NCBI GenBank assembly: GCA_017524525.1
Contig: JAFXVM010000006.1
Coordinates: 24,819 to 88,818, forward strand
DNA: 64,000 bases
DNA from: Alphaproteobacteria bacterium
Lineage (GTDB): Bacteria > Pseudomonadota > Alphaproteobacteria > Rs-D84
Direction of reading: 5' to 3'
Below, piece by piece: positions 2,639-62,672 of this stretch. Position 1 is the first letter of the stretch, and each line of letters opens with the position of its first letter. Below the pieces are notes generated by a model. That model saw nothing but the letters and a program-made list of their open reading frames with translations. It did no database searches and was not told the origin of the DNA. Position numbers and translations under genes: made by a program.

Positions 2639-2727
2639 GGAGCGTTGGCAGAGTGGTAATGCAGCGGATTGCTAATCCGTGACCGTGTTTTAGCGGTCCA
2701 TAGGTTCGAGTCCTATACGCTCCGCCA
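2639..2727 (+). tRNA. tRNA-Ser (anticodon GCU)
   Basis: Cloverleaf by hand: acceptor GGAGCGT/ACGCTCC, anticodon loop TTGCTAA, long variable arm GACCG..CGGTC, T-loop TTCGAGT, encoded CCA. Confidence 0.9.
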
Positions 2728-6590: not shown

Positions 6591-9500
6591 ATGGAAAAAA
6601 CACGGTTTTTTGCATGTTTTGTGCGTATGTTTAACGCGATGTGTTTCGCGATTTGTGCTGTGTTGTTTTCTTCAAACGCTTATTCAACTTGTGCAACTGG
6701 TTATCATGAACAGACCAATCCTTTAGATTCTACTATCTATAATAAAAAAATGGTTGGTTTTATGTATAGAGACCCAACTACAGAAACAGATTTTGTTTCC
6801 TATGGAACTAACTACCATACAACTAACTATGCTACTGGTATATGGGTATCAGCAATGAAAAATCCTGGTTCTCAACTTATGGAAGACACTTTTGTTGGTG
6901 GTCATGCATTCTGCGCAGCAACAGGTAGCGAAAATGATTATCATAAATCCAGGACAACTTTCGCGACATCAAACAACATTACAACAACAGAACCCGGCTC
7001 TTATTGTTGGTGTCAACTTTATGCATTATATGTATACAACTGGCAATATTTTTCTGGAACATGGGTGGCTCTTAACAACCTGGGAAGTCATGACAATTGT
7101 GCAAATAATACCTGTGCACAGGAATGCGCAAATGAAATGCATAACAACCCATCGTTCCGTCAGGCTATTTATTCTGTGCCATATTGTGTTGCTGATGATA
7201 CACCACATATATATCCTATAAACTATTATAATGTCGCGCACGCTACGTGGAATTTAAACCAAAATCACCCATATGGTTACACCACTGGGCAAGAAATAAC
7301 TTTAGGAATTCCATCTCGACAAAATTATGATTTTGTTGCTTGGTGCGATAATGCAGAATTAACAGAAAACTGTATGTTTACAAAGACTATACCTGCAGAT
7401 TCTGTCGGGACAAAATCTTTTTATGCAAAATGGGATTTTGCAAATTCTGATTGCCAAGATGGCTATAAACATGTTTGCTTGATAAACTTTGATGTATTAA
7501 ACCAAAACAGATTAGGATATGCATATAAGCCGATTGATGGTTCTGAAGTTCAAACTGAAGGTGACAAAACAACAGAAACATACAATTTGACCCAACCTGG
7601 TGAATGGGGTGTTTCTTTTGAACACGGGGACTTGAAGGGCATATCTAAGTGTGCTACTACCGCATCTACTTCTGATGGGAACGGTCATCTTTGTTGGTGC
7701 AAAACAACAGATTTTATACCTTCCGACACAGAAGACACGACGTGTCATTCAGAGACAGGACTTTGGACATATTCTGATGATCTCGTGAACGATAATCATT
7801 GTTCTAAATACTGCCCGCTAAGCTGTGTTAAAAAAAATCCTGTCACAGATAACTTATTCGGTAGGAACTCTTATTTTTGGGAATATTTTGCGAACGAAAA
7901 TCTTTCTGAGTGTGTGATTGATAAATATAAAATAAATTATGTATTGAACGGTGGCCTTTTCCCTAATGAACGACTTTCGTATATATATTTGAATCGTGTA
8001 AATGATGTATCTGCACCAACAACATACCAAATCACAGATACTGTTCTTATACCGCGCCCAGCACGAGAAAATTTTGTCTTTGGCGGATGGTACACAGAAC
8101 CAGATTTTTCTGGAGAACCTATTTTTGATGGTTTTGGCCCAGGAGAATTTGGCAACATAACACTTTATGCGAAATGGATAGAAAAAACTTGTTCCGAACA
8201 TTACACTTTGTCTTATCCTGCAAACATTGAAGGCCATTATATCTACAGCGGCAACACATGGGAAGTAACCTTTCCTTTTGGTGTCGTATCAGGAACAGGT
8301 TATACATCACAGTGGAACAAAAACAGATGTGTCTGCAAAGCAACAAGCTTTACACCAAAGAATGGAACAACACAAGATATTGTGTTTGCACCGGAAGGCG
8401 CTGCTGGTAGAACCAAAAATTGTGCCTATTATTGTTCGTACGATATTGCACATGATATTTATACCAGAACACCTACGTTTGCAGGAACGGTGCTTCAAGA
8501 CCCTGTTTGCTTACCGATTGAATATACAATCCATTTCGAATCAAATGGTGGAACAAGTTATAGTGATAGACACTACAACGTTGAATCTGATAATATAACT
8601 CTACCAGAACCTGCGCGCAGAGGATATCACTTTGATGGCTGGTATGAAAACGAGGACTTGTCAGGCACAAGCGTCACAACAGTTTCTTCAGGAACACCGG
8701 GCAACAAAACATTTTATGCCAAATGGAGTTTTGTTGGTTGTCCTGCAGGATATGTCGCACAAGATACAGATTCTGGCAAAATCTGTCAACCAATTACCTA
8801 TACGATACATTTTGTATCTAATAGTGTACTAAATTTTGATGATATACCATACACCATCGAATCAGAAGACATAGAATTGCCTACTGATATTTCGGAACAA
8901 AACGGACTGCCATTTGTTGGCTGGTATGAAGACGACAGTTTTTCAGAACCAGCCATTACACTTGTCCCCAAAGGTTCAACTGGCGATAAAATTTTCTATG
9001 CAAGATGGTTACAAAACACGTGTAGCACAGTTAATACAACCGCTAATAATTTGATTAGTTTGGTGGATGTAGAAACCCGCGGTATATCCACGTACAATTT
9101 TAACCACGGAGATTGGTTTGTTATCTTTGATTACGGCAAATTGCAAGGTAGAGGGATATGCAGCAATATGACAGGGGACATCGGCACAAAAGCAGATACT
9201 GTTACAGAATCAGAAAACGGTTCTAATTGTTGGTGTAATATAACTAAATTCACCCCCGCAAACGGTATAATAAAAGAAGCAACTTCTCCGTGGTTTTCCG
9301 TTGGTAGCCAGTCTGATTGTTCAAAAACCTGTGCTACAATATGTGGTGCATATACTTTTAAAAATCATAATAATTTTTATACTGTTGTAAAACCTGCGTA
9401 TTATTTAACCAATGTTTGTAATGCGCCAGTGTATACTATACATTATAATTCTAATTACGGGACAGAATACGAAGATCAACAATACACAGCTATTTACGAC

Positions 9501-12500
9501 ACTATAACATTACCGACACCAACTCGTGCTGGTTATGCTTTTGCCGGATGGTATGACAATGACAATTTTGAAGGAGAACCTGTGACACAAGTCGCGTCTG
9601 GTTCTACTGGCAACAAAACATTTTGGGCGAAATGGAACTTTATTGATTGTTCGACAGGATATATAGAGCAAGAAACAAATGGTGTAAAAACCTGTGTGCT
9701 AGTTAAACATTCTATTACATATATAGATGAAGATACAGAACTAGACTTAGAACCATCAACTTATGATATCACCACACTTGGAACAAGTTTGCCGTCTGCG
9801 CCACAAGGGTATTCAAATTTTATTGGTTGGTGTTTAGATTCTTCTACTTGTTTTTCAACCATTAATAAAATACCAACTGATTGGACAGGCGACAAAGTTC
9901 TTTACTTAAAAAAATGCCCCACAAACTATAAACTTGGGACACCTTTTTCTGTTGATAGTCGCGCAACAAAATGGGCAGCAAAGTCGGCATTGACTGGTGA
10001 TGCAACTTCAGCCTCAGCTTATGGATTAACAACTCATGGCGAATGGGGAGCAACTTTTGATTCTGGTTATATAGTTGGAACATCTTTATGCAGTCAAACA
10101 CCGGGGGGCACAAGGGGCGCAGTCGGTCAACCAGACGAGACTGGCGAAGGTGACACGAAGTATTGTTGGTGCAGAGTTACAAAATATGGTTTTCCAGAAC
10201 GAGAAGTCAATACCACTAAATGGGTCGCAGAGAACAACACAACAGACAATGTCTCCGCAGAATATTGTAATGGTTGGTGTGCTTATAACTGCGCTCAAAA
10301 AGCAGTGGCACTTACGTCTAATACTACTAGAGTAAACATGGCCACCATGTGCGTACCTGATTCTGAATACACAATAAATTATGTGTTAAACGATGAAAAC
10401 GCTGTTTTCCCGGTCACAGCTATAAAAGTACCGCATTCCTATATTTCTAGTGATTTACCAATCAGTTTAGAAAATGCTATACCTGTGCGTCCTTATTATA
10501 CATTTGAAGGTTGGTACGACAATGCAAATTTTGAAGGAACCGCTATCACAGAAATACTAAGCGGTGCAAATCAGGATATTACTTTGTATGCTAAGTGGTC
10601 GTGGACAGGTTGCCAAGACGGTTCATATTTAGATTCATCAACTAATACATGCGAAACGTGTCCGGATGGTTATATATCTAACGGGAAAACAGCAACCAGT
10701 AAAAACGATTGTTATGTTGAATGGAATTGCTCGGAAAACTTAGCTGGTTGCCCTCAAAATGCGACTTGTACATATATCGACCCTGACCACTTGTCTGGAA
10801 TCGATTATTATGGCAACAATACCCCACACTGCGAAATAAACGCTGTCTGCAATGCTGGCTATGTATCAAATAATGGTGCATGCACAGAACAAGAATACCC
10901 TATACAATACATCATTGATGGCGGAGATTTTCTTGGCACTCTTAATCAAAGCAATATACCGCGCACTTATACTGTTAGTTCCGTCATAGATTTATCAGGT
11001 ATAGTGGCATCACGTTCTGGATACACTTTTGAAGGATGGTACGACAATTCAACATTTGAAGGTTCTGCGATACCAAATTTATCAAATTTAGCACCTGGGG
11101 GAATCACGCTTTACGCGAAATTTGAACCCGTTGTATGTACTGTCATTTATGATAACGAAGGTGACGTAAGTCAAGAAACTTATTCTGGACAAAGCGTTAT
11201 TACTTTGCCAGTGCTTAGAAAAAATTCGTACACATTTGACGGTTGGTGCGAAGAAGATTTGGACACCTGCCCTGGTGGTCCAAAACAAACATTAACTGCC
11301 AGAAACGAAACAGTGAATTTATATGCTAAATGGGGTGATAAAAATTATACCATCACTTATATGGACGGGAATAATACGTTGTCACTTTTGGAACCAGAAT
11401 CTTATACAGAAAACAAATTGCCAGTAGATTTACCAACAACCGCATATTCAAGCAATGATGATTCTGTGTTTGACGGTTGGTATAACAATCCAGAATTAAA
11501 TGGGGATGCTGTCACAGAAATTCCTGCGGGTGCACAAGTGACAAACAAGATATTTTATGTAAAATGGCGTCCAAAATATTATGCTATAACATATATGGAC
11601 GGCGACATAAATGTGACAGCATCAATGCCTTTGATTGAAACAACAACCAGCAATGGTGAAGATATAACACTGGGAGAATTATCCGAAAAAAACGGTATGG
11701 CTTTTGTTGGTTGGTGCGACGATGCACAAGGTAATAATTGTTCTATGACAAAAAGACTTTATGCTAATACACCTGTGATTTTGTACGCACAACGCGAAGA
11801 AGCCACTTATCATATTACTTATAAAAATGGCGACACAGATATTACAAATGATGTTGCACCAGAATTTAGGACATACACTGTTAACAACCCGATTGTGTTA
11901 CCTGGTGCCAATGACGTGTCCGTTGAACATTATGTTTTTAATAATTGGTTGGACGAACATGATACAGTGATTAACACACTGCCATCGCAAACTGTTCCTA
12001 ATGGCGACTGTGTTTTACAAGGGAATTTTAGCCCTGTTCAATACACACTTTCGTTCACAGAAGATTCTATATCAAATATGCCTGCGTCTTCTGTCACGTA
12101 CAATATTGAAAACCTACCTAATTTGAATGCTCGTACACCAACAAATCCAGAATATGTATTCGTTGGATATAAAGATGCTGTTAGTGGTGAAATAATTTCT
12201 GCTATTACGGCCGAAAACGCAGGCAACATTGAATTAACACCAGAATATTCATACGTATCTTGTGACACCGGTTTTAAAACCCGAACATCAAACTCTGCCG
12301 TTTGGAACACCGCAAGAAATGGTATATTGAACAATTATTATGTGACACACCCCACAGCAAACGGTAGTGTATCTAGAGTATACAAACGGAAACCAACATC
12401 AAATTACACCATACCAACAGCCCCAACGTCGGGTTCAAATGCGCGTGCTGTTTGGGTAACGTTGTTTGACCAAGGACAAAGCAACCATGCTGAAATATAT

Positions 12501-15500
12501 GCTATGGGTGAAGCGAGTTGTAATTCAATTGCAGGTGTTGGGTATGAAACAGGCTCGGTAATGTTTTCTTCTTCCCGCCCAAGCAACGATATGAACAATA
12601 TAGCATCCACTGGTAATTATTGCTGGTGCCGTTTAACAAGTTATAAACCAGACAATCAGATTGTGTCAATCCAAGATACAGATTGGATTTATTTAAAAGA
12701 ATTTAGTTCTGCTGAAAATTGCGCTTCGCAAGGTAACGAATATGGTTCTCAATCTTGTGCTGCAAAATGTGGCGAAGCAGTAAGAACAAACGCCTTTTTC
12801 CGTTCACAGATATTTGATGATTTAGGTATATGCGCCGTTGGTATATACGATATTCGTTACAGATTAAATGGTGGCAATTGGGTGCAGTCTGATTCAATTA
12901 ACTGTGCTGAAAATGAATATTTTGATGACAATTCTAATGAATGTAAACCGTGCGCAAACGGGGAAAATTCAAGTGGTCATTCAAATTATTGTATTCCTGT
13001 AGAAACTTCTATGAATTATCATGCTATAAACCTGCCCCAGCCAGTCAGGACAGGATACGATTTCGCCGGATGGTGTGACGATGCAGATTTAACTGTTAAT
13101 TGTAAAACTGAAAAGGTTATTCAAACAGGCACCACCAACGATGTTTATGTTTATGCAAAATGGACACCAATAAATTATCAAATAACATACAATCTTGATG
13201 GTGGCACTTTGCCAAGCGATGTTTCTAACCCAACCGTATATCATATTGATGATACTATAGAATTGCCAATTCCAACCAAAACCGATTATATTTTTGATGG
13301 TTGGTATGAATGCGCAAATTATGAATGCAACAAAGTTTCTGTTTGGGGTCCCGATGAAACCGATGAAGACAAACAATTCTGGGCCAAGTGGAATATTGGT
13401 TCTTATACAATCACTTACGACAGACACGGTGGTGTTTTTGATGCAAATGTTGCAGACACACAAACATATACTGTTAATGACACCTCTAATAACAATTATT
13501 TAACACTTCTGAAACCTAGAAGACAGGGCTATGACTTTGTCGGCTGGTGCCTTGAAGAAGAAACACCATATCAAGAATGTGGTACAGAAGAAATAATCAC
13601 GGACGAAAGCACTTCGGGATGGAGTGGTGATAAAAAACTTCATGCAAAGTGGAATCTGGAAGATTATACCATAACCTATTATGATAACAATAACCCTATG
13701 ACTTTGGAAAACACAGAATGGGAAGACAACAGTACTGTGATAAATGAATATAATGTATCTTCTAAATATACATATCCAATACTATTACCAAAGCCTTTGA
13801 AATCTGGACACAGATTTGAAGATTGGTACAGCACAGTGAATTTAGATAATGACCCAGAAAATTCAACACCAATCAGCGAAATTGCTTTTGGAACAACTGG
13901 CAACAAAGATTTTTATGCAAAATGGGCTTGTGCTGCTGGATATTATGGTGACGGAACAACGTGTACAATTTGTGAGGCAGGCACCTATAGCGACACAACC
14001 AATGCCGCAAATTGCACAGCATGCCTATTAGGCCACACTTCTGCTGCGGGTGCCACCAGTTGTGTGGCGTGCACAAACACCGAACATGTCACAGAATGGG
14101 CTGATGCTCTATGCGGAATCAGTCAATGTGATACAGGTTACAAAATCGAATCCACACAAATAAGCGCAATTTCAACCGATGAAAATGGTATATATATGGC
14201 TTACACAATGCATGCGCCAGAACATCTTCAAAACAATAACATTGGTTGTTATAAAGACGGCGTTTATAATGATTGTAATGATTCTGTCTTTGATAACGTG
14301 TCAAAACCGCACGGTTGGCGTGTTGTGTTCCGTTATGGAACAGTGACGGGAACTTCTGTGTGCAGCACGACAGGTTCGGCACTTAATGTTGCTAACGCTA
14401 ATCAAGATATCTATGATATAAACACCCCTGATACAACAAGCGAAGGTGGCGCATATTGTTGGTGCAAAGCATTAGATTACGACAACCAAAGCCTTGCTGG
14501 ATCTTGGGTTTTTGCAACGGATTTTTCGGGTGCACATGCTACTTGCGAGAATTCTTGTGCGATGAATTGCACTGGTAAAGTATATCGCAATTCTGCGTTT
14601 AGGGAAGTTATGTTTGGTAACACCTATCTCAATAACGTCACGTTGGATACATTAACGTTTGATGAACCTTTGGACAAAGCTATGTGTGTACCAAAAGTTT
14701 TCCCAATAGTTTATCATAATATTGATGAGGTTATTTGGAACAACGGTGAAAACCATCCTGATTTTTATACTTTATTACAAAACGATGTCACCATTGGTCG
14801 TCCAACACGTCAAGGCTTTGTATTTATGGGTTGGTGTGAAACAGAAAATTGTGTTGATGAAACGCCACAAAATAATTATAGTTTTATCCCGAACGATAAA
14901 GCGGAAGGTCAAATAGATTTGTATGCTCAATGGACTTGTGCTGCTGGATATTATAAAAATGGCTCTGCGTGCAATGCTTGTCCACAAGACCCATACGGAA
15001 TTCAATATACATCACCAAACGAAAATACAGATGGAATCAACAGTTGTTATTATAGTTGCGCTAATGTATTTGAAGTTTTTTGTCCTGAACATTCTATCGA
15101 CTGCTTATACACTGGCGATTCAAATGCGACAAATTCTTATGGCTATGAAACCAACAATTGCACTATAAGTTTTAATTGTGACCCAGGTTACGGTGTTGAC
15201 GGTGCTTTGTGTTCTTTGAATACATATTATATAACTTATGTCGATACACTTGAAGATATTGCCAGTGAAAATCGTAAAACAAGCGAATCTTACACTGTCA
15301 ATGATTTACCTGTATCGAAATCGGTATCGCCAGAAAATACACACACCGGTTATGATTTTGACGGTTGGTGCGAAACAGATGAATTGACAGGCGATTGTTT
15401 AACAACAATTACAATTGATGTTAATACTATAGGCGATAAAACCTTCTATGCTCGTTGGACAACACAAAATTATACTATAACCTATCATAATAACGGTGTT

Positions 15501-18500
15501 GATTCAGAAGATTCTTATACATACGGAACAGGAAAAAATTTGAACGCGCCTGAGACACCAACGGGTTATGTTTTTGCGGGCTGGTATACAAACAGTGATT
15601 TTTCTGGCGAAGCAGTGCAAACAATCGCTGACACAGAAACAGGTTCTAAAGAATTCTGGGCAAAATGGACGTGTACTGCTAATTATTATCACGATTCTAA
15701 CACTTGTACGGCGTGTCCTGATTTATATCCAACATCTGTTGTCAATGACAACGAAGGTATTGGAAAATGTTATGCACAGTGTGAAACCATAACAGAATGT
15801 CCAGAACACGCTACATGCTCTTACGCAAATACAATTGACGACAAAGATTACTATAAAGAAAATGCAACAGAAACTTGTGTATCTGGTATTGAATGTGATA
15901 CGGGCTATGGTCTAGAAAACGGTGCATGCGTATTACAAACATACACTGTCACATTTATGGATGGCGAAACACAATTGCGCCAAGAATCATACACGATTAA
16001 TTCTGTTGAACCTATTGTTTCAACAACGCCGGGGAATTCAGGTGGCGAATTTGCTGGTTGGTGTGACAACGAAGATTTAACAGGTGAATGTTCAACGACC
16101 GTGACTGTTCAACCAAGTGATGCGACCGACAAAACATTTTATGCAAAGTGGACATGCGCAAATGGATATTATGGTTCTGCTTGCACACAATGTCCAGAAG
16201 GATACAGAAACACCGATGCAGGCGCAGCAAGAATAACAGATTGTTATAACATATATACTTGTCCAACAGAATGCCCGCCACATGCAGTGAGTTGCACTCA
16301 GCCAACAAAAGAATTTGTTAAGAATTATTATGGCGCAACAGAATTTGAATCTTGTGATATGGATGTAGTTTGTGAAGACGGGTACGAAGCAAAAACTATT
16401 GATAAGATTTACAAAAATAAAATCACTTATGAGAAGTATTTAAACGGCGATTCTTATAAAAAATTAGACAAACAAACCTTTGGTTTCTACGCTTCGTATT
16501 ATAATACACCAGAAGCAATAACTGAAACAAGCCATCTGTTGAATGGTGAAACGGAACAGTTTTTTGATTACGGCTCTGTACGCATGGTTTCCACATGTGA
16601 TAGCGCCGCCTATAGCATATACAACCACGTATTAACTATTAACAACGAACCTGGAAGTAATTGTTGGTGCAAATTTACACAATATTCACCAGACGGAATA
16701 AATTATACAAACCTTGATTTTCCATGGAAACCTGGGTTGCCATGGCAAACCTATGAGCAATGTCTGGATTCCTGCGAGTGCGGTGGTGTTCCTGACAGTT
16801 GGTGGAGAAACCAAAAAGTTTGTAGTGCAAGAGAATATACAATTTATTTTGAAACTAATGGTGGTTATATTGAAACAAATAACAACTATATGCTTTATGA
16901 TGTGACAGCCGACCCGTTTGATTTACCAAAACCAACACGTCCGGGATACGATTTCGCCGGATGGTGCAACAATGAAAACTTAACTGGCGAATGTCCAATA
17001 ACAGTGACAATTCAACCAAGTGATGCAGAAAACAAAACATTTTATGCAAAATGGACACCTGTTGTTTGCGATGAAGACATGGTTGTAGCAACAAGGTTTA
17101 ACACAACAAAAGAACCAATAGCCTATTCATCCATAGAAATTGATGGTGTTGTTCGCACGACTGAAATGTTTTATCCTGGCAGATTACCAAACGCATACGG
17201 TTTAACAGAAAGCGGTACCTGGGCAACAGAATACGATTACGGAACCTTATATGGCGAAGCCGCTTGTAAGGACGCACCATATTATATGGGTGACTATAAA
17301 GCCAGTCCGGTTCCAGACGAAGTGTTTAATACATTTGCTGATACACCGTTTGTAACAATTGATACTGACGATTCTGTTTCCGCAACATGTTATTGCAAAC
17401 CAACTGCGTTTAAACCAACTTTTGGTTCGAAACAGGCTTTGTCCAACAATTGGAAAGAGCACGTTCATACATCCGCCTATGAGTGCAATATACATTGTGC
17501 ATACTATTGTTCACAGGATAAATCACGCGCAACTATACATCTGCTCGGTGAATTTACAAACACAAATTATTGTGCGTACAGAATTAATTATTATCATTTG
17601 AATGATGGGGAATTTGTGGCACCTGCTTTGCATCCAGACCATTATGATACAGGCGACAGGTTTACAATTGGGCAACCTGTGCGTCGTGGTTATACGTTTG
17701 CTGGCTGGTGTGTAGGTCAAGACAGGTGCAACAACACCCAAGAAAGTTTTGAAGTAAATTCTTCAACTGTGGGTGCTGTTGATTTATACGCACAATGGAC
17801 AGCGGGACAATACACTATTACTTATAATATGATGGGTGGCACACCAACATATCAACCAGAACAAAACACTGTCGGTATTATGGTGTATTTTCCAGACGAC
17901 CCAACAAAAGAAGGTTATGATTTTGCAGGCTGGTGTCCGAACAGTGAAACCTGTGAAAACCCTATAAAAACACAAACATGGGGTGGCGCAACAGAGGATA
18001 TAACCATGTATGCACAATGGGATATTAAAACTTATTATATTACCTATGTGTTTAATAATGGCGATGCAAGCGTGACAGAAGAACAAGATTTCAACGAACA
18101 AGTCATATTACGCAAACCAACAAAATCTGGTTTTACATTCGATGGTTATTGTGTTGATACAACAAATTGCAATCCATTGACGTTGCCTGTTGACAGCACA
18201 AGCGATTCTTGGGTTCACAGTGCTTGGAACAGAGATTTAACGCTTTATGCGAAATGGACACAAAATGTCGCAACCGAAGAATGCACGTCAAAGGCTTGGC
18301 TACATGTTGGCGAAGACAAAGCTTGTTTATCAAAAACCCCTGTTGAAAAACCAGTATTAGTAATTCAGGGTAAACACGGCAAATATTATTTACAAGCAAC
18401 CAAGGATTCAAATTTACCAATGAACAAAGATACAACGAAGCAATTACGTATACAAAAAGCAAATGATATATATAATGTACATGATGAAACCGTGTCCAGA

Positions 18501-18533
18501 AACGATACAGATAATTCTTCAACAGGGGTGTAA
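6591..18533 (+). CDS. giant secreted repeat protein (3980 aa): about 25 Listeria-Bacteroides (Flg_new) repeats, at least 8-9 novel Cys-rich 'CWC' modules, ephrin-receptor-like Cys repeats, conserved C-terminal domain
   Basis: Uninterrupted 11,943-nt ORF with an RBS AAGGGAAAGG and a signal peptide. It contains recurring ...YTITY..GG....LP.PTR.GY.F.GW........FYAKW units, recurring GEWG..F..G...G.S.C.....G.YCWC..T modules, and CAAGYYGDGTTCTICEAGTYSD-type repeats. Confidence 0.85.
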   Translation: MEKTRFFACFVRMFNAMCFAICAVLFSSNAYSTCATGYHEQTNPLDSTIYNKKMVGFMYRDPTTETDFVSYGTNYHTTNYATGIWVSAMKNPGSQLMEDTFVGGHAFCAATGSENDYHKSRTTFATSNNITTTEPGSYCWCQLYALYVYNWQYFSGTWVALNNLGSHDNCANNTCAQECANEMHNNPSFRQAIYSVPYCVADDTPHIYPINYYNVAHATWNLNQNHPYGYTTGQEITLGIPSRQNYDFVAWCDNAELTENCMFTKTIPADSVGTKSFYAKWDFANSDCQDGYKHVCLINFDVLNQNRLGYAYKPIDGSEVQTEGDKTTETYNLTQPGEWGVSFEHGDLKGISKCATTASTSDGNGHLCWCKTTDFIPSDTEDTTCHSETGLWTYSDDLVNDNHCSKYCPLSCVKKNPVTDNLFGRNSYFWEYFANENLSECVIDKYKINYVLNGGLFPNERLSYIYLNRVNDVSAPTTYQITDTVLIPRPARENFVFGGWYTEPDFSGEPIFDGFGPGEFGNITLYAKWIEKTCSEHYTLSYPANIEGHYIYSGNTWEVTFPFGVVSGTGYTSQWNKNRCVCKATSFTPKNGTTQDIVFAPEGAAGRTKNCAYYCSYDIAHDIYTRTPTFAGTVLQDPVCLPIEYTIHFESNGGTSYSDRHYNVESDNITLPEPARRGYHFDGWYENEDLSGTSVTTVSSGTPGNKTFYAKWSFVGCPAGYVAQDTDSGKICQPITYTIHFVSNSVLNFDDIPYTIESEDIELPTDISEQNGLPFVGWYEDDSFSEPAITLVPKGSTGDKIFYARWLQNTCSTVNTTANNLISLVDVETRGISTYNFNHGDWFVIFDYGKLQGRGICSNMTGDIGTKADTVTESENGSNCWCNITKFTPANGIIKEATSPWFSVGSQSDCSKTCATICGAYTFKNHNNFYTVVKPAYYLTNVCNAPVYTIHYNSNYGTEYEDQQYTAIYDTITLPTPTRAGYAFAGWYDNDNFEGEPVTQVASGSTGNKTFWAKWNFIDCSTGYIEQETNGVKTCVLVKHSITYIDEDTELDLEPSTYDITTLGTSLPSAPQGYSNFIGWCLDSSTCFSTINKIPTDWTGDKVLYLKKCPTNYKLGTPFSVDSRATKWAAKSALTGDATSASAYGLTTHGEWGATFDSGYIVGTSLCSQTPGGTRGAVGQPDETGEGDTKYCWCRVTKYGFPEREVNTTKWVAENNTTDNVSAEYCNGWCAYNCAQKAVALTSNTTRVNMATMCVPDSEYTINYVLNDENAVFPVTAIKVPHSYISSDLPISLENAIPVRPYYTFEGWYDNANFEGTAITEILSGANQDITLYAKWSWTGCQDGSYLDSSTNTCETCPDGYISNGKTATSKNDCYVEWNCSENLAGCPQNATCTYIDPDHLSGIDYYGNNTPHCEINAVCNAGYVSNNGACTEQEYPIQYIIDGGDFLGTLNQSNIPRTYTVSSVIDLSGIVASRSGYTFEGWYDNSTFEGSAIPNLSNLAPGGITLYAKFEPVVCTVIYDNEGDVSQETYSGQSVITLPVLRKNSYTFDGWCEEDLDTCPGGPKQTLTARNETVNLYAKWGDKNYTITYMDGNNTLSLLEPESYTENKLPVDLPTTAYSSNDDSVFDGWYNNPELNGDAVTEIPAGAQVTNKIFYVKWRPKYYAITYMDGDINVTASMPLIETTTSNGEDITLGELSEKNGMAFVGWCDDAQGNNCSMTKRLYANTPVILYAQREEATYHITYKNGDTDITNDVAPEFRTYTVNNPIVLPGANDVSVEHYVFNNWLDEHDTVINTLPSQTVPNGDCVLQGNFSPVQYTLSFTEDSISNMPASSVTYNIENLPNLNARTPTNPEYVFVGYKDAVSGEIISAITAENAGNIELTPEYSYVSCDTGFKTRTSNSAVWNTARNGILNNYYVTHPTANGSVSRVYKRKPTSNYTIPTAPTSGSNARAVWVTLFDQGQSNHAEIYAMGEASCNSIAGVGYETGSVMFSSSRPSNDMNNIASTGNYCWCRLTSYKPDNQIVSIQDTDWIYLKEFSSAENCASQGNEYGSQSCAAKCGEAVRTNAFFRSQIFDDLGICAVGIYDIRYRLNGGNWVQSDSINCAENEYFDDNSNECKPCANGENSSGHSNYCIPVETSMNYHAINLPQPVRTGYDFAGWCDDADLTVNCKTEKVIQTGTTNDVYVYAKWTPINYQITYNLDGGTLPSDVSNPTVYHIDDTIELPIPTKTDYIFDGWYECANYECNKVSVWGPDETDEDKQFWAKWNIGSYTITYDRHGGVFDANVADTQTYTVNDTSNNNYLTLLKPRRQGYDFVGWCLEEETPYQECGTEEIITDESTSGWSGDKKLHAKWNLEDYTITYYDNNNPMTLENTEWEDNSTVINEYNVSSKYTYPILLPKPLKSGHRFEDWYSTVNLDNDPENSTPISEIAFGTTGNKDFYAKWACAAGYYGDGTTCTICEAGTYSDTTNAANCTACLLGHTSAAGATSCVACTNTEHVTEWADALCGISQCDTGYKIESTQISAISTDENGIYMAYTMHAPEHLQNNNIGCYKDGVYNDCNDSVFDNVSKPHGWRVVFRYGTVTGTSVCSTTGSALNVANANQDIYDINTPDTTSEGGAYCWCKALDYDNQSLAGSWVFATDFSGAHATCENSCAMNCTGKVYRNSAFREVMFGNTYLNNVTLDTLTFDEPLDKAMCVPKVFPIVYHNIDEVIWNNGENHPDFYTLLQNDVTIGRPTRQGFVFMGWCETENCVDETPQNNYSFIPNDKAEGQIDLYAQWTCAAGYYKNGSACNACPQDPYGIQYTSPNENTDGINSCYYSCANVFEVFCPEHSIDCLYTGDSNATNSYGYETNNCTISFNCDPGYGVDGALCSLNTYYITYVDTLEDIASENRKTSESYTVNDLPVSKSVSPENTHTGYDFDGWCETDELTGDCLTTITIDVNTIGDKTFYARWTTQNYTITYHNNGVDSEDSYTYGTGKNLNAPETPTGYVFAGWYTNSDFSGEAVQTIADTETGSKEFWAKWTCTANYYHDSNTCTACPDLYPTSVVNDNEGIGKCYAQCETITECPEHATCSYANTIDDKDYYKENATETCVSGIECDTGYGLENGACVLQTYTVTFMDGETQLRQESYTINSVEPIVSTTPGNSGGEFAGWCDNEDLTGECSTTVTVQPSDATDKTFYAKWTCANGYYGSACTQCPEGYRNTDAGAARITDCYNIYTCPTECPPHAVSCTQPTKEFVKNYYGATEFESCDMDVVCEDGYEAKTIDKIYKNKITYEKYLNGDSYKKLDKQTFGFYASYYNTPEAITETSHLLNGETEQFFDYGSVRMVSTCDSAAYSIYNHVLTINNEPGSNCWCKFTQYSPDGINYTNLDFPWKPGLPWQTYEQCLDSCECGGVPDSWWRNQKVCSAREYTIYFETNGGYIETNNNYMLYDVTADPFDLPKPTRPGYDFAGWCNNENLTGECPITVTIQPSDAENKTFYAKWTPVVCDEDMVVATRFNTTKEPIAYSSIEIDGVVRTTEMFYPGRLPNAYGLTESGTWATEYDYGTLYGEAACKDAPYYMGDYKASPVPDEVFNTFADTPFVTIDTDDSVSATCYCKPTAFKPTFGSKQALSNNWKEHVHTSAYECNIHCAYYCSQDKSRATIHLLGEFTNTNYCAYRINYYHLNDGEFVAPALHPDHYDTGDRFTIGQPVRRGYTFAGWCVGQDRCNNTQESFEVNSSTVGAVDLYAQWTAGQYTITYNMMGGTPTYQPEQNTVGIMVYFPDDPTKEGYDFAGWCPNSETCENPIKTQTWGGATEDITMYAQWDIKTYYITYVFNNGDASVTEEQDFNEQVILRKPTKSGFTFDGYCVDTTNCNPLTLPVDSTSDSWVHSAWNRDLTLYAKWTQNVATEECTSKAWLHVGEDKACLSKTPVEKPVLVIQGKHGKYYLQATKDSNLPMNKDTTKQLRIQKANDIYNVHDETVSRNDTDNSSTGV

Positions 18534-18884
18534 TGTAATTTATCCAAACTAGATACAAGTCTTACCGGCGCAAGTTACACACAAAATTCTGACGGCAGTT
18601 GAGCAACAACATTTAGCTATGGTGTTATTGGTGGTAATGCGATGTGCGGAACACGATGCGTTGGTAATAAATCTGTCCTGAACGGCGTACCAGATGGAGC
18701 AGGAAGCTGTTGCTATTGTCAAATAACCAGTTATAAACCCCAGAATGAAGACACCTGCTTAATATCTTCTGCCCCTTGGGTGCAATCAATGCAATTTTCT
18801 AGTTGTACCCCATATAATTGTGCTAGCAAATGTAGTTCTCTTGTCAAAGATTGGGCGGAACTTCGCAATTCTATGTATAATTAA
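18534..18884 (+). pseudogene. relic/fragment of a CWC-module paralog, in frame with the giant ORF but separated by TAA (18531) and TGA (18600)
   Basis: The same reading frame continues after the giant stop: CNLSKLDTSLTGASYTQNSDGS*ATTFSYGVIGGNAMCGTRC...GSCCYCQITSYKP...W...C...C...C. The TGA sits exactly where the module's invariant Trp (TGG) belongs. Confidence 0.6.
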
Positions 18885-25793: not shown

Positions 25794-28700
25794 ATGCCCT
25801 ATTTTTCGCGATTTTTACACAGATTAACCGTATGTGTTTTAGCATTTGTTGGGTTGTTTGCTGTGAATTCTTGTTTGGCAGCATATACTGTTAATTATTT
25901 GTGCGGGGATGGCACGGGTGAAACGCCAGCTGATGCTATAAACATTCAAACAGGCGCTGATTTTGTTCCTGCCGCAAATACTTGTACCACGCCAGAAAAC
26001 TATGAATTCGATGGTTGGTCTGTTAGTGGCACGAACGACGTCATACCTGCAAACACTCCATTTACATGGGAATATACGGAAAACAAATATTTTATTGCAC
26101 ACTATACAAAAAAAACTTCGTGTTCAGCAGGACAGAGTTGGGAAACATATACTTGTGATTTATCCGATGCAATTGTTGGTAATCCAAGCGGGAGCGAGCA
26201 AACCGGGGGCTGGGGAGCCAGAGCCATAAACGGTGCAACAGGAAGCGATTATACAAGACCTTTAAACAATTACCCATTAGCAAAAGGCGAATGGGTTAGC
26301 ATTATGTTTAGAGATACAATCAAAGGTCGAGCTTTCTGCAGTAACAGAGCAGGCAATGATTGGACTCTAACTTACCCAGACGACTATAAAGATGAGTGGC
26401 TGGCAAACGATTCAGAACTTATCGCTGCTGGCACAGGAGATTATTGTTGGTGCAAAATTTCTAATTCGCTGCGATACGATAACATTAAATCTGATTGGGT
26501 GTTTAGTAGTGGACATTTTTCATCATCGACCTGTTCTAGTTATTGTGCTATATTTTGTGCTCACCAATTCCGTGCACCATCATCAATTAATTCGGATTTT
26601 CGTCCTGAACTGTATAATGCCGTAACACGCGCCGAACAAGAAAAATGTGAAATCAATGCTAATTTATATTCTATAACCTATTCTAACCTTTTGAATGCGA
26701 CATGGGATGAAAATCAATTACATCCTGATTCTTATACAACTGGCGAAGAGATAACAATTGGAATTCCAACCCGCGAAGGATATACTTTTGATGGGTGGTG
26801 TGATGATGCCGAATTAACACAAAATTGCACAACAGAAAAAGTCATTCCCGCTGGTTCAACCGGCGATAAAACATTTTATGCTAAATGGACCGCTTTGCCT
26901 TGTGGTGTTGGCTATGAATCTCAAACAGACATATTTAGTGACACGGATTATTTTGCACCAGGTCGTGCTTATTCATATTTTGGTGCTGCTGATCGTAACG
27001 AACACTTTGTCAGCAACGGTTTAAACATAGATTTAGACAATACTTTGGAAGCATTGCCTGCTGGAAGATTCGAAATATTTTTCGCAACTGATGCTGATTC
27101 AAATACAGGCTTTCATGCCATGATGTATGGACGCGCGCAATGCAGTTCTACAGTTGGTTATACGGGCAACTGGGAGTATTCAGGACACGGTCAGTCTGTT
27201 CCAGATACAATCAGTGAAACCCCAGGTAATTATTGTTGGTGTCAATTTGATAAAATGGTTCCATATACAAAATCTGGTTCACAATGGGTGCCAAATGGTG
27301 AACCCATAGATTTTGTGACGAAATGGCTGTCACCAGGTGGTCAAACATGTACTCCATATTCTTGTGCTGGGTATTGCACCAAAAAGTTTCATGTCCAAAT
27401 ACCAGAACGTCAGGCACTGTATGGTCCGGGCGCCTTGCCACCATGCAAAATAAAAACATACACTATCAGTTATGAACTGGACGGTGGCGAATGGCCAATT
27501 GCACTTGTCAGCAAGCCTGAAACCTATAATATTACTTCCGCAACTATAAATTTACCAACGCCAGCCGAACGTGAAGGTTATACATTTACAGGCTGGTGTG
27601 ACAACGCAGAATTAACACAAAATTGCTCAACAGAAAAAATTATCGCGACAGGCTCAACTGGCAATAAAACGTTTTATGCAAAATGGACAGAGAATATTGT
27701 TGAACCTGAAGAGCCTGTTGAACCGGATACAGAACAAGAACCAACACCTGTGGATGAACCGGATGAGTGTGCTTTGGCTTCATGCGTTGTGACTATTGAT
27801 TTTGGTAATGGTCAAACAACCGAAAAGACATTTGACAACGGCGATGATTTGGTTATGCCTGTTCAAGCAGAACCAACCGGATCTGTGTTTAACGGATATT
27901 GTGAAGGTACACCAACGTGCACAGAACCACAAATGCGTTTAACCACAGAACAGATTGAAAATGGTGCAACTATGTATCCACAATACATACCTGTATCAAC
28001 AGGGATGACCGCACCGTCTGTTGAAGAAAGAACTTGTTTAAACGATGCCTGCGAAATAATTTTGAATTATGATGATTCAACAGAATCTTCTGCGAATATC
28101 GATTTGAATTCTGGATCGAACAACAGATCAGCTTCTGCTCTTCGCCGTGGCGGGATATTAAGAACGGCCACAACTAATCGTTCTGCCAGAACATTTAATC
28201 GTGGCGAATTATTAATTACACCTATGCTGGTCAAACAAGGTTATACTTTGCAAGGTTATTGCGTTGATGAAACTGATACATGTTCTGCACCAATTGCGGC
28301 AGTATCAAACATAAATCTTAACACAAAGAGCCGTGTGACTATTACACCAAAATGGAGTTCTAGTGGCTCTACCCCTGAAACCTATACCATAACTTATGAT
28401 ACTGCGGGTGGAACACCAACATATTCATCCGCAACATATACCATTGGCGATACCGTATCTTTGCCTGCTGACCCAACAAAAGAAGGTTATACTTTCAAAG
28501 GCTGGTGTGTAGACAGTGCAACTTGTGCAGAACCAATAGATACATCTACTTGGGCTGGTGCAACAAAAGATGTGACGCTTTATGCACAATGGGAAATTAT
28601 CTCGAATTCTGGATGTCAACCGGGATATTATTCATCACAAGATTCTGGGGAATGCACAATATGTGAAGAAAATCATTATTGCATTGGTGGCGAAAATTCG

Positions 28701-28976
28701 ACTATGAAATCTTGTCCATCTGGGCTGGTGGCACCAGTTGGAACGGTTTCTGCCAATGAGTGTGGCAAAATCATGCGGATTGGTGAAAATGTTCTTTATT
28801 TGACACAAAAACAACAAACTACACCTGCTTTGGCGGTCAAAATAGATGACAAGATATACTATGCCAAAACAACACCTGTGTCACAAATAGAACAACCGAC
28901 AAAACATTTTCTAAGAACAAGAATAGACGGTATCGAATATTCTATACACGATAATGCAATTCAAAGGAGAAATTAA
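25794..28976 (+). CDS. secreted CWC-module / Listeria-Bacteroides-repeat protein (1060 aa), mini-paralog of the giant protein
   Basis: Signal peptide; two CWC modules (GEWVSIMF...GDYCWCKISNS, ...GNYCWCQFDKM); three Flg_new repeats nearly identical to giant-protein repeats; a C-terminal ~65 aa homologous to the giant's C-terminus. Confidence 0.85.
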   Translation: MPYFSRFLHRLTVCVLAFVGLFAVNSCLAAYTVNYLCGDGTGETPADAINIQTGADFVPAANTCTTPENYEFDGWSVSGTNDVIPANTPFTWEYTENKYFIAHYTKKTSCSAGQSWETYTCDLSDAIVGNPSGSEQTGGWGARAINGATGSDYTRPLNNYPLAKGEWVSIMFRDTIKGRAFCSNRAGNDWTLTYPDDYKDEWLANDSELIAAGTGDYCWCKISNSLRYDNIKSDWVFSSGHFSSSTCSSYCAIFCAHQFRAPSSINSDFRPELYNAVTRAEQEKCEINANLYSITYSNLLNATWDENQLHPDSYTTGEEITIGIPTREGYTFDGWCDDAELTQNCTTEKVIPAGSTGDKTFYAKWTALPCGVGYESQTDIFSDTDYFAPGRAYSYFGAADRNEHFVSNGLNIDLDNTLEALPAGRFEIFFATDADSNTGFHAMMYGRAQCSSTVGYTGNWEYSGHGQSVPDTISETPGNYCWCQFDKMVPYTKSGSQWVPNGEPIDFVTKWLSPGGQTCTPYSCAGYCTKKFHVQIPERQALYGPGALPPCKIKTYTISYELDGGEWPIALVSKPETYNITSATINLPTPAEREGYTFTGWCDNAELTQNCSTEKIIATGSTGNKTFYAKWTENIVEPEEPVEPDTEQEPTPVDEPDECALASCVVTIDFGNGQTTEKTFDNGDDLVMPVQAEPTGSVFNGYCEGTPTCTEPQMRLTTEQIENGATMYPQYIPVSTGMTAPSVEERTCLNDACEIILNYDDSTESSANIDLNSGSNNRSASALRRGGILRTATTNRSARTFNRGELLITPMLVKQGYTLQGYCVDETDTCSAPIAAVSNINLNTKSRVTITPKWSSSGSTPETYTITYDTAGGTPTYSSATYTIGDTVSLPADPTKEGYTFKGWCVDSATCAEPIDTSTWAGATKDVTLYAQWEIISNSGCQPGYYSSQDSGECTICEENHYCIGGENSTMKSCPSGLVAPVGTVSANECGKIMRIGENVLYLTQKQQTTPALAVKIDDKIYYAKTTPVSQIEQPTKHFLRTRIDGIEYSIHDNAIQRRN

Positions 28977-61442: not shown

Positions 61443-62672
61443 TTATTGTGCAATCAAACCTGTAAATATCGCCGCACGGAAATCGGAGTTGTTCCGGACG
61501 TTGCCGGCGCAGTTGCGCGCACAGTTGACCGCGCAACCGGACGCCGTACCGCCGTCGTTGAGGAACACCCACGCAGGGGACGACAAACTACATTGACTTT
61601 CACCATTTGCTGTATAATGCGTTGCTTTGCACCAGCAATATTGTCCACCAGCGACATATCCACCGGTTGTACCGGGATTACCCGTCTCTCCCAGCGTTTT
61701 ACCGTCGTCTGTTGTACTGCAAAATGCTTCGCCTGTCACTTTATCACCATTTGACCATGTGACGCCCCATGTATTATCTTCGGTTAAATTATAGTCACTG
61801 GTGTTTAGCCCAGCCGCTCCATATTCTCCGGTGCTGTCGTTTTTATATCCTCTTGAGCTTCCGTTTGTGCTGACCAATGTTGATGGGATTAAACATTGTT
61901 GTTGTGATGGCGTTGGGGCGACGGCGACACTGTATACTGCATCGCGAAAACCCGGCATACCACGCAATGATTGGGCGCACTCTGACGCGCACGTTTCCGA
62001 ACAATCTGTTGTTGAATTAAATCCGTGATTAAACACCCATGGTTGTGGCGCAAATTCACATTCAGAACCGTTAGTTGGTGTAAATGCATCGGCGCGACAC
62101 CAACAATAAGTCGCACTTCCGCTGGCACCAGTCAAAGTTGCTGTATCTGCCGTCCAATCAGAAGATGTTCCACCCCATGCATAACTGTGGTTATTCCCAA
62201 TGTGCGCGCTGCACATTGCACTTCCCGTTATATTTCCCGGCACAAATGTTGCCCCCCAAGTTTGAGGCTGTGTTAAACCATATGCCAGGGCATTATCCGC
62301 ATAAGGTTCTGGGCTGTCCCCGTTTATATAACCGTAATCTGTTCCTGTATCCACAGAATCTAATGTCGGCAACGCGCATTGTGGAACACGTAATGTCCAG
62401 CCGGCGAATGCATAGCCTAGACGTGATGGCGCGGTTGGCAAAGTCATTGTGCTGGAATAAGAACAACTCTGTGGGGCATTTTGAATTTGTACACCTTCGC
62501 TGTACCAAGTTGTGTTTATTGTATTTGGTTCCCAGATAAGATCTATGTTCAATGGACCTTCGCTGGCGCCAAGGTCTGATTCAGTGCAATTCGCCGGGTT
62601 TGGCATCTCGCCTGTTGCCCAGGCAGAAGTCGCCAAAAACAGCGCAAAAATCGATGTAAAAAGCACTTTCAT
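61443..62672 (-). CDS. secreted CWC-module protein (about 409 aa; two modules), smaller paralog of the giant-protein family
   Basis: Signal peptide MKVLFTSIFALFLATSAWA. Two modules: QTWGATFVPGNITGSAMCS...ATYCWCRADAFTP...W...C..TC..EC...R..PGFRDAVY and NTWGVTWSNGDKVTGEAFCS...GQYCWCKATHYT...W...C..NC..NC....R.NSDFRAAIF. The ORF-track start at 62675 is a TTG; the ATG at 62672 is preferred. Confidence 0.8.
   Translation of the reverse strand: MKVLFTSIFALFLATSAWATGEMPNPANCTESDLGASEGPLNIDLIWEPNTINTTWYSEGVQIQNAPQSCSYSSTMTLPTAPSRLGYAFAGWTLRVPQCALPTLDSVDTGTDYGYINGDSPEPYADNALAYGLTQPQTWGATFVPGNITGSAMCSAHIGNNHSYAWGGTSSDWTADTATLTGASGSATYCWCRADAFTPTNGSECEFAPQPWVFNHGFNSTTDCSETCASECAQSLRGMPGFRDAVYSVAVAPTPSQQQCLIPSTLVSTNGSSRGYKNDSTGEYGAAGLNTSDYNLTEDNTWGVTWSNGDKVTGEAFCSTTDDGKTLGETGNPGTTGGYVAGGQYCWCKATHYTANGESQCSLSSPAWVFLNDGGTASGCAVNCARNCAGNVRNNSDFRAAIFTGLIAQ

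What the first reader, a model, noticed from the sequence alone, without database searches (positions are those of the whole stretch)
7596..7870. Novel Cys-rich 'CWC' module defining a multigene family (3 genes + 1 relic in this window)
The pattern is G(E/D/T)W(G/A)xxFxxGx(I/V)xGx(S/A)xC(S/A)-variable loop-Gx(Y/L)CWCxxTx(F/Y)xPx(5-12)Wx(8-12)Cx(3)Cx(3)Cx(6-9)(F/W)Rx(2)(I/V/M)F. It recurs in the giant protein (nt ~6800-7200, 7596-7870, 9100-9370, 10030-10300, 12400-12810, 14300-14620, 16540-16830; degenerate VCK/YCK variants at ~8250-8470 and ~17200-17510). It also occurs in the 1060-aa protein (26290-26620, 27120-27420), in the minus-strand 410-aa protein (61443-62672), and in the relic at 18603-18884. 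Six to eight invariant Cys plus two invariant Trp suggest a disulfide-stabilised extracellular fold. I cannot assign it to a named domain.
Basis: seen in the sequence. Interest (0 to 1): 0.85.

Follow-up and report, generated by a model that had tools for sequence, protein, structure and literature searches.

The report
New cysteine-rich domain in Enterousia surface proteins
The 'CWC' module is a real, previously undescribed secreted protein domain of about 110-150 residues, apparently held together by disulfide bonds, that an uncultured gut bacterium with a tiny genome (Candidatus Enterousia) carries in many copies and swaps between strains, most likely as the binding head of its surface proteins.

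Summary
A six-frame profile scan finds exactly 14 module copies: 9 in the 3980-aa ORF, 2 in the 1060-aa ORF, 2 in the 409-aa ORF and 1 relic.

It is constrained at protein level, not homogenised at DNA level. Copies share 25% of amino acids and 41% of bases. Third codon positions are near chance.

Cysteine parity and paired losses support three or four disulfides. This is inferred, because I had no coordinates.

The family has 1897 clusters (50% identity). All named members are uncultured gut Alphaproteobacteria. The window is Ca. Enterousia (order Rs-D84), whose genomes are under 1 Mb.

The only partner domain is Flg_new. One loop varies from 9 to 88 aa. At the orthologous 409-aa locus the C-terminal module is replaced wholesale between strains. 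The 1060-aa gene lies on a 4.7-kb block that a related strain lacks.

Best reading: a variable binding or adhesion head. That function is inferred, not shown.

The parts
6591..18533 (+). Giant secreted protein, 3980 aa. Order: signal peptide, 9 CWC modules, 25 Flg_new repeats, 5 other Cys-rich spacers, 91-aa C-terminal domain. Every CWC module is followed directly by a Flg_new repeat.
7476..7889 (+). The finding's own module, extended. It runs from the upstream Cys (aa 296, C-L-I-N-F-D-V) through the N-terminal extension, the strands carrying W/C/CWC, and the Cx3Cx3C helix. The core as flagged is 7596-7870.
   Evidence: (AF2 pLDDT 82.3; blocks covering residues 21-130 average 81-97, 31-100 about 90-97)
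6807..7181 (+). CWC module copy 1 (CWC at aa 139)
   Evidence: E 3.8e-19
8229..8501 (+). Degenerate module (CVC). It lacks the first sheet Cys and one helix Cys together.
   Evidence: E 8.3e-9
9084..9401 (+). CWC module copy (aa 880)
   Evidence: E 7.3e-21
10011..10355 (+). CWC module copy (aa 1192)
   Evidence: E 1.1e-23
12420..12827 (+). CWC module copy (aa 2011), long loop
   Evidence: E 5.7e-22
14289..14627 (+). CWC module copy (aa 2623)
   Evidence: E 5e-24
16521..16829 (+). CWC module copy (aa 3358), divergent C-terminal helix region
   Evidence: E 2e-13
17187..17570 (+). Module variant with CYC (aa 3600)
   Evidence: E 1.5e-19
18534..18884 (+). Relic module. It is in frame with the giant ORF and starts at the codon after that ORF's TAA stop. 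The conserved Trp codon is TGA (18600-18602). The rest is an intact 114-codon module with a CYC motif. The sequence is identical in two further public assemblies from other accessions (L044, L045).
25794..28976 (+). 1060-aa secreted protein. Order: Flg, CWC, Flg, CWC, Flg x4, C-terminal domain. It lies on a 4.7-kb block (25693-30408) that is absent from a related strain.
26262..26630 (+). CWC module (aa 218)
   Evidence: E 3.8e-22
27036..27434 (+). CWC module (aa 481), long loop
   Evidence: E 1.3e-14
61443..62672 (-). 409-aa secreted protein (ATG at 62672). Order: signal peptide, one Flg_new, two CWC modules. The second module ends at the C-terminus (…FRAAIFTGLIAQ). The gene has its own promoter-like site and lies downstream of the RNase E/G gene, as in its orthologues.
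61914..62378 (-). Extended module 1 of the 409-aa protein, from Cys aa 99 (CALPTLD). It is 95-98% nt-identical among strains.
61446..61895 (-). Extended module 2, C-terminal, from Cys aa 260 (CLIPSTLV). It is replaced between strains: aa identity 45-63%, dS 0.5-1.06. This copy was used for the best AF2 model.

Best explanation
The CWC module is a genuine, previously undescribed extracellular protein domain. The core is about 110 aa, or about 150 aa with its N-terminal extension. It is confined, as far as named records show, to uncultured gut Alphaproteobacteria of the Enterousia / Rs-D84 type.

Shown:
- It is conserved at protein level.
- It is exported; most members have Sec-type signal peptides.
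- It is predicted with high confidence to fold as an antiparallel beta-sheet packed against a C-terminal helix. One Cys ends strand 2. The C-W-C triplet lies on strand 3. Cx3Cx3C lies on the helix.

Inferred:
- The two Cys of CWC face one side of the strand, and the three helix Cys lie on one helical face. Three disulfides therefore staple helix to sheet.
- A fourth disulfide ties an optional Cys after strand 3 to a Cys in the N-terminal extension.

Inferred function:
- The domain is the distal binding (adhesion) head carried on stalks of Flg_new repeats.
- Specificity lies in the one hypervariable loop between the first Cys and CWC.
- The family diversifies by duplication, by whole-module replacement through recombination, and by gain or loss of genes. 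This gives a partner-dependent organism with a reduced genome a variable repertoire of surface ligands or antigens.
For: Real and constrained:
- 14 copies in the window.
- Copies share 25% aa and 41% nt identity. Third-position identity is 34% against 28% by chance. Conserved Cys, Gly and Ala columns use mixed synonymous codons.
- 1897 clusters at E <= 1e-3 and 874 at E <= 1e-10.

Fold:
- AF2 gives pLDDT 91.7 and pTM 0.85 for the C-terminal module of the 409-aa protein.
- AF2 gives pLDDT 82.3 and pTM 0.78 for the finding's own extended copy, with the same strand and helix order. The extension is modelled at about 82-97.

Disulfides:
- Six Cys are conserved in at least 96% of 277 modules.
- The seventh Cys (48% of modules) comes with an odd number of upstream Cys in 116 of 132 cases, and with none in only 1. 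Modules without it have 0 or 2 upstream Cys in 101 of 145.
- Loss of the first sheet Cys goes with loss of a helix Cys in 7 of 8 cases.

Exported: 159 of 218 complete proteins have a signal-peptide-like N-terminus.

Head on a stalk:
- The only recurrent partner domain is Flg_new.
- 146 of 277 modules end within 14 aa of the protein C-terminus.
- In one subfamily the module follows a segment that matches phage families. P0085 matches phrog_892, tail fibre, at E 3.9e-5. P0087 matches phrog_17509, unknown function, at E 3.2e-11.

Variable loop: the C..CWC spacing ranges from 9 to 88 aa, while the other landmark spacings are typically constant (interquartile ranges of 0-1 residue, e.g. 14-15, 18-19 and 11). 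The highest column entropy is in the loops.

Module exchange at the syntenic locus:
- Among strains L035, L036 and L037, the N-terminus has dS about 0.06 and module 1 about 0.05-0.1.
- The C-terminal module has dS 0.5-1.06 and dN 0.38-0.51.
- In two of three strains compared, that module is at least as close to modules at other loci in other MAGs as to its positional orthologue.

Gene gain or loss: the 4.7-kb block carrying the 1060-aa gene is absent in related strain L043, with a clean junction.

Lifestyle: LysS is 93% identical to that of Ca. Enterousia merdequi. Enterousia / Rs-D84 genomes are under 1 Mb and lack biosynthesis, respiration and standard transporters. They are proposed to depend on partner cells (PMC12306168).
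Against: - No binding, localisation or expression data exist.
- No ligand-binding signature was identified.
- I had no model coordinates, so disulfide geometry and surface exposure of the variable loop are not verified.
- Enterousia is reported to lack a respiratory chain (PMC12306168). This raises the question of how a DsbB-type oxidase would be reoxidised. I did not check for Dsb or VKOR genes.
- How a 3980-aa protein would cross the outer membrane is unknown.
- The mosaic pattern shows exchange between strains at population level. It does not show programmed switching.
- Internal modules in the giant protein could be structural rather than binding units.
Confidence: 0.55

Rival explanations
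1. Structural rivet. The module is a rigid, disulfide-stapled spacer that stiffens or caps long Flg_new fibres or an envelope layer. It has no specific ligand. The variable loop drifts freely or varies only to escape phages or antibodies.
For: Modules alternate regularly with Flg_new inside the giant protein, and every CWC is followed by a Flg_new. No binding motif is recognisable. About half of all modules are internal.
Against: Half of the modules are terminal, in small proteins of one stalk repeat plus one head. Length variation is concentrated in one loop on a fixed scaffold. Replacement of whole modules between otherwise near-identical alleles is more typical of interaction surfaces than of spacers.
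Confidence: 0.2
2. Metal-binding cysteine cluster. The six invariant Cys coordinate Zn or Fe rather than forming disulfides, as has been argued for some Cys-rich surface proteins of anaerobic gut organisms.
For: The habitat is anaerobic and the organism is reported to lack a respiratory chain (PMC12306168). The only PDB sequence hit, marginal, is a Zn-binding PHD finger (E 0.019).
Against: Proteins exported by the Sec pathway cross unfolded. The core Cys count is 6, and rises to 8 only with a paired addition. Accessory Cys follow a strict even-number rule. Cys are lost in pairs. No His or Asp co-ligands are conserved. The PHD alignment is not significant.
Confidence: 0.12
3. Secreted toxin or antimicrobial effector. 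The C-terminal module is a helix-to-sheet stapled effector, in the manner of defensins, that is released to act on competitors or partner cells.
For: A CxC strand and a CxxxC-type helix recall the cysteine-stabilised alpha/beta motif (motif from my own knowledge). Many family members are small secreted proteins.
Confidence: 0.05
4. Divergent member of an already known family that these searches missed, so it is not new.
For: AFDB libraries were unavailable. No HHpred-type search against Pfam or SCOP profiles was possible.
Confidence: 0.06
5. Artefact of DNA repeats or gene conversion that keeps copies alike without protein-level constraint.
For: None found.
Against: 41% nt identity, near-chance third positions and mixed synonymous codons at invariant residues. 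No DNA repeat family covers any module, whereas the Flg_new repeats are detected.
Confidence: 0.01

Closest known systems
Flg_new / Listeria-Bacteroides repeat (PF09479, TIGR02543; InlB B-repeat) surface proteins
   Same: The CWC module occurs only in proteins built from these repeats. They are secreted, modular, often giant, and annotated 'InlB B-repeat-containing protein'.
   Different: The module is a separate domain. Pfam hits lie between the modules. hhalign of CWC against the window's Flg_new repeats gives probability 0.14%. Flg_new has no conserved Cys.
Cysteine-stabilised alpha/beta (CS-alpha-beta) motif of defensins and scorpion toxins (from my own knowledge)
   Same: A CxC on a beta-strand faces Cys spaced i, i+4 on a helix. 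This stapling logic fits the predicted placement of CWC and Cx3Cx3C.
   Different: The order is reversed (strand first, helix last). There are three helix Cys rather than two. The domain is 110-150 aa against 35-50. It sits inside multidomain proteins. There is no structural match. The actual Cys pairing was not verified.
Segmentally variable surface-protein families of small-genome bacteria (Anaplasma Msp2/P44, Mycoplasma genitalium MgpB/MgPar, Neisseria PilE/pilS, Borrelia VlsE; from my own knowledge)
   Same: A multigene family in a reduced genome. A defined segment (the C-terminal module) is replaced between otherwise near-identical alleles. A truncated, promoterless relic copy is present.
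   Different: No array of silent cassettes, no donor copy and no within-strain switching was seen. The variation seen is between strains and metagenomes. There is no sequence relationship.
[not shown]
   Same: 71 residues superpose at 2.6 A.
Cys-rich variant surface proteins of anaerobic gut eukaryotes and Ephrin_rec_like / furin-like repeats (Giardia VSP type; from my own knowledge)
   Same: Cys-rich, variable, extracellular proteins in an anoxic gut. The giant protein also carries five 'C..GYY…C..C' spacers of that general style, and a relative gives a weak Ephrin_rec_like hit.
   Different: The CWC module has its own motif and a mixed alpha/beta fold, not CXXC repeats. No homology was detected.

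Membership tests
Flg_new / List_Bact_rpt (PF09479, TIGR02543) | A match to the family profile over the segment in question | tested here: not met
   Profile hits cover the flanking repeats only. Of 47 isolated modules, 1 gives a weak hit, from flanking residues. hhalign probability is 0.14%.
Any Pfam-A / NCBIfam / PHROGs family | Score at or above the family threshold, or a weak hit that recurs across members | tested here: not met
   No family recurs in more than one member apart from Flg_new and Flg_new_2.
[not shown]
   [not shown]
CS-alpha-beta defensin-like fold | CxC on a strand and CxxxC on a helix | tested here: met
   AF2 secondary structure places C53/C55 in strand 52-61 and C87/C91/C95 in helix 84-101. 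The second model agrees.
CS-alpha-beta defensin-like fold | Helix precedes the CxC strand; compact 35-50 aa domain; structural similarity to defensins or toxins | tested here: not met
   [not shown]
CS-alpha-beta defensin-like fold | Disulfide connectivity Ci-Cj and Ci+4-Cj+2 | not testable with these tools
   Model coordinates are not returned. Only correlated Cys loss and parity are available.
Gene-conversion antigenic-variation systems | Segmental mosaicism of an expressed gene relative to paralogous copies | tested here: inconclusive
   The C-terminal module at the syntenic 409-aa locus is replaced between strains (dS 0.5-1.06 against 0.05-0.1 for the rest). In two of three strains compared, it is at least as close to paralogues in other MAGs as to its positional orthologue. 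No donor was found in the window.
Gene-conversion antigenic-variation systems | Silent truncated cassettes, and switching within a clone | not testable with these tools
   There is one relic copy (18534-18884), but it is not close to any expressed copy at DNA level. Long-read or time-series data are needed.
Diversity-generating retroelement target | A template/variable repeat pair and a reverse transcriptase nearby | tested here: not met
   No near-identical repeat covers any module. No reverse-transcriptase ORF appears in the window's ORF list.
Zinc finger (PHD-like) | Significant profile match and a Cys4-His-Cys3 ligand pattern | tested here: not met
   E 0.019 only. There is no conserved His. 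The proteins are secreted.

The most novel reading that the evidence does not exclude
Candidatus Enterousia has a genome under 1 Mb and seems unable to live alone. It may use CWC heads on Flg_new stalks as its attachment organ to partner or host cells. It may vary them by cassette-like replacement of whole modules drawn from paralogues and relics such as 18534-18884. That would be a new-fold adhesin and antigenic-variation system in an alphaproteobacterial counterpart of CPR episymbionts.
Probability: 0.2. Interest if true: 0.8.

Novelty: new variant of a known kind. Interest (0 to 1): 0.62.

Why it matters
Enterousia / Rs-D84 bacteria are widespread in herbivore guts. They have genomes under 1 Mb, with no biosynthesis, respiration or standard transporters. 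How they obtain metabolites or attach to partners is unknown (PMC12306168).

In this window about a quarter of the DNA (16.4 of 64 kb) encodes CWC/Flg_new proteins. One gene alone is about 1.3% of a 0.9-Mb genome. That is a large investment for so small a genome.

A defined domain with a profile, a confident model, a variable loop and evidence of module exchange gives concrete material for several experiments:
- recombinant binding assays;
- antibodies or FISH-linked localisation to find the partner;
- a marker family for tracking strains.

It also adds a sizeable unannotated family (1897 clusters) that could be entered into domain databases.

Tried and rejected
- AFDB Foldseek was not installed.
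It worked with the subfamily alignment A2.
- Viral contigs hold no relative.
- A homologue search with the giant protein's C-terminal domain plus the relic found nothing.
- A metagenome scan with the relic found nothing. I therefore could not find an intact orthologue of the relic.
- Two exact look-ups failed because I chose the wrong start codon: the 410-aa TTG-start form and a mis-guessed amidase start.
- The listing of cluster members on ten divergent members returned no names.
- A literature search for 'CWC motif' with 'cysteine-rich' and 'bacteria' gave 0 papers.
- The weak NCBIfam hit to a radical-SAM-modified Cys-rich peptide family (E 0.82) and the PHD-finger hit are treated as noise.
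- A prophage or tail-fibre context for P0087 is rejected. Its neighbours are housekeeping genes.
- A DGR is rejected.
- An alternative genetic code for the relic's TGA is rejected. TGA ends 4 of 39 long ORFs, and the 35 conserved-column Trp codons checked in the 13 module copies are all TGG.
Full report
**1. What is in the window**

The window is ordinary bacterial chromosome at about 38% GC. It is full of housekeeping genes.

It carries an alphaproteobacterial permuted tmRNA. Its LysS is 93% identical to that of Candidatus Enterousia merdequi.

Enterousia belongs to the uncultured order Rs-D84. Its genomes are under 1 Mb and lack biosynthetic pathways, respiration and standard transporters. 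The lineage is proposed to depend on partner cells (PMC12306168).

**2. The observation**

Coordinates 7596-7870 are aa 336-426 of a 3980-aa ORF (6591-18533). They carry the stated motif.

I aligned the 13 in-ORF copies and built a profile from them. That profile alone recovers all 87 database homologues of the 409-aa protein.

A broader profile (A1: 48 modules, 13 from the window) was scanned over all six frames. It gives exactly 14 significant matches and nothing else below E 0.3:
- nine in the giant ORF;
- two in ORF 25794-28976;
- two in ORF 61443-62672 (-);
- the relic at 18603-18881, which was not used in training (E 2.7e-15).

**3. Protein-level constraint**

The window's copies share on average 25% of amino acids (maximum 38%) and 41% of nucleotides. 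Third positions agree at 34%, against 28% expected from composition. Invariant Cys, Gly and Ala columns use mixed synonymous codons.

A DNA repeat search detects the Flg_new repeats but no CWC module. The 'homogenisation' refutation test therefore fails.

**4. Anatomy of the module**

Across 277 complete modules from 227 proteins, six Cys are present in at least 96%. They are one after strand 2, the two in CWC, and the three in Cx3Cx3C. Three Trp are present in 82%, 83% and 94%. An Arg in the closing F-R-x-A-x-F is present in 91%.

A seventh Cys ('QC', after the CWC strand) occurs in 48% of modules. It comes with an odd number of Cys in the 45 residues upstream in 116 of 132 cases, and with none in only one. 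The partner usually lies 31-33 residues before the profile start, in a C-x-I-P-S motif. Modules without the seventh Cys have 0 or 2 upstream Cys in 101 of 145.

For the finding's copy that is nt 7476.

Loss of the first sheet Cys goes with loss of a helix Cys in 7 of 8 cases. The window's own CVC copy shows this.

The spacings W..C, CWC..W and W..C are typically constant (interquartile ranges of 0-1 residue, e.g. 14-15, 18-19 and 11). The loop between the first Cys and CWC runs from 9 to 88 residues, with modes at 20-24 and 35. Loops have the highest column entropy.

**5. Fold**

AlphaFold2 on A1 gives pLDDT 91.7 and pTM 0.85. Strands are at 8-12, 18-26, 52-61, 67-69 and 75-80. Helices are at 84-101 and 103-111.

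The finding's own copy, modelled with its extension (A3), gives pLDDT 82.3 and pTM 0.78. The order of elements is the same, and the extension is modelled with confidence.

CWC lies on a strand, where residues i and i+2 share a face. Cx3Cx3C lies on a helix, where i, i+4 and i+8 share a face. Three helix-to-sheet disulfides plus an optional fourth are the natural reading. The parity data agree. I had no coordinates, so this is inference.

**6. Comparison with what is known**

- Pfam and NCBIfam see only Flg_new repeats in the three proteins.
- Ten diverse relatives, 57 further relatives and 47 isolated modules give no recurrent family in Pfam or PHROGs.
- The PDB profile search gives only a PHD finger at E 0.019.
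- Foldseek against PDB peaks at E 0.38, and against BFVD at E 0.2.
- hhalign against the neighbouring Flg_new repeat is null.
- AFDB could not be searched.
- No paper mentions the motif.

The helix-to-sheet stapling resembles the CS-alpha-beta motif in logic only.

**7. Distribution and architecture**

The profile finds 1897 clusters (50% identity) at E <= 1e-3, and 874 at E <= 1e-10. Some proteins reach 6218 aa and up to seven modules.

In species-representative genomes, 32 loci fall in 13 MAGs. All are uncultured Alphaproteobacteria or 'proteobacterium' from rumen, yak, sheep, cattle or horse faeces. Several are named Enterousia. The best-sampled MAGs hold five to six loci, and many loci lie at contig ends. 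No viral contig carries the module.

The typical small member is a signal peptide, one Flg_new and one CWC module. The module ends within a few residues of the C-terminus; the last residue is Q in 78 of 142.

The giant protein reads: signal peptide, 9 CWC, 25 Flg_new, five other Cys-rich spacers, and a 91-aa C-terminal domain shared with the 1060-aa protein. Every CWC is followed by a Flg_new.

The genes are scattered among housekeeping genes, with no dedicated secretion operon.

**8. Evolutionary dynamics**

The 409-aa gene has syntenic orthologues next to RNase E/G.

Among three close strains, the N-terminal part has dS about 0.06 and module 1 about 0.05-0.1. The C-terminal module has dS 0.5-1.06 and dN 0.38-0.51. 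The switch occurs at the C-L-I-P-S start of the extended domain.

In two of the three strains compared, that module is at least as close to modules at other loci in other MAGs as to its positional orthologue; for example L035 is 81% identical to L005 and 78% to L037. In the third, L036, the positional orthologue L035 matches over only 189 nt. Conversely, the window's N-terminal part is divergent (dS about 1.1) while its module 1 is nearly identical to the others. This is mosaic exchange in whole-module units. The alleles recur in independent assemblies, so chimeric assembly is unlikely.

Separately, window 25693-30408 is absent from related strain L043, with a clean junction. This block holds the 1060-aa gene, a 191-aa secreted ORF and an ankyrin-repeat gene.

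The relic is a complete module cut off by the giant ORF's TAA and by a TGA at the conserved Trp. It is identical in two further public assemblies from other accessions. No intact orthologue was found.

**9. Interpretation**

Shown: a real, exported, protein-constrained, confidently folded domain family. It has no known relatives. It is specific to this lineage, expanded, diversifying in one loop, and exchanged between strains.

Inferred: disulfide stapling, and a role as the distal binding head of Flg_new-stalk surface proteins in an organism that must interact with partners. A subfamily in which the module follows a phage-related segment, one of them tail-fibre-like, fits a distal position only weakly.

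The main rivals are a purely structural role and metal binding. The reported absence of a respiratory chain makes the oxidising route for disulfides an open point.

**10. Verdict**

The finding is correct and worthwhile. It is a new domain family, unassigned at both sequence and fold level, within the familiar class of modular Cys-rich surface proteins. Its function is unproven. Interest 0.62.

Noticed in passing
window 25693-30408: A 4.7-kb block is missing from related strain contig L043. The block holds the 1060-aa CWC gene, a 191-aa secreted ORF with an overlapping start (28976-29551, no Pfam hit) and an ankyrin-repeat gene (29608-30249). In L043 the RNase J terminator joins directly to the rpsD promoter. 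This is a strain-variable island.
   Followed up: yes
window 10599-10895, 13926-14288, 14934-15224, 15669-15941, 16152-16520: The giant protein holds five copies of a second Cys-rich spacer of about 95 aa ('C..GYY…C..C…', about 12 Cys each). There is no Pfam hit here. A relative gives a weak Ephrin_rec_like hit. This may be a second undescribed module.
   Followed up: partly
window 18258-18530 and about 28760-28973: The giant and 1060-aa proteins share a C-terminal domain of about 70-90 aa (…L/M-x-V/I-G-E…K-x-Y-Y…V/I-H-D…). It has no family match. It is a candidate anchoring or sorting domain.
   Followed up: partly
window 18531-18602: The conserved upstream Cys of the relic's extended module is the codon immediately after the giant ORF's TAA (…STGV* C-N-L-S-K-L-D-T-S). 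This suggests the giant protein once ended in a C-terminal CWC module. That module is now cut off by two nonsense codons and is otherwise intact.
   Followed up: partly
window 52983-53337: A permuted alphaproteobacterial tmRNA (tag [12 protein letters not shown]) overlaps the 5' end of listed ORF 51939-53270 (Obg). That ORF's TTG start is therefore over-extended.
   Followed up: yes
window 60380-61443: A 1-kb non-coding stretch lies downstream of the 409-aa gene. It has raised GC (about 45%) and repeated G/C-rich palindromic elements (CCCCTCCTAAGGGGGAATTTT…, copies at 60937-61006 and 61236-61305). There is no Rfam match, and it is unexplained.
   Followed up: partly
window 2707-2991 and 38857-39111: The 3' ends of two tRNAs are duplicated together with their terminators. 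tRNA-Ser(gct) has a 98% copy 196 nt downstream. tRNA-Gly(gcc) has 103-nt tandem units. They look like integration or excision scars.
   Followed up: no
window 20189-21436 (-): A 415-aa secreted protein with several Cys and no family match. It is conserved and syntenic in related strains, next to the AmiC-type amidase (18892-20148).
   Followed up: no
family-wide; window 61446-61480: C-terminal modules end in a conserved tail, F-G-x-x-V-A-Q. The last residue is Q in 78 of 142, N in 19 and E in 18. It may be a processing or sorting signal.
   Followed up: no
window 62690-62740 (-): The promoter-like site of the 409-aa gene has an A8 tract in the spacer between TTGCAA and TATACT. This is a conceivable phase-variation site. 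It was not compared across strains.
   Followed up: no
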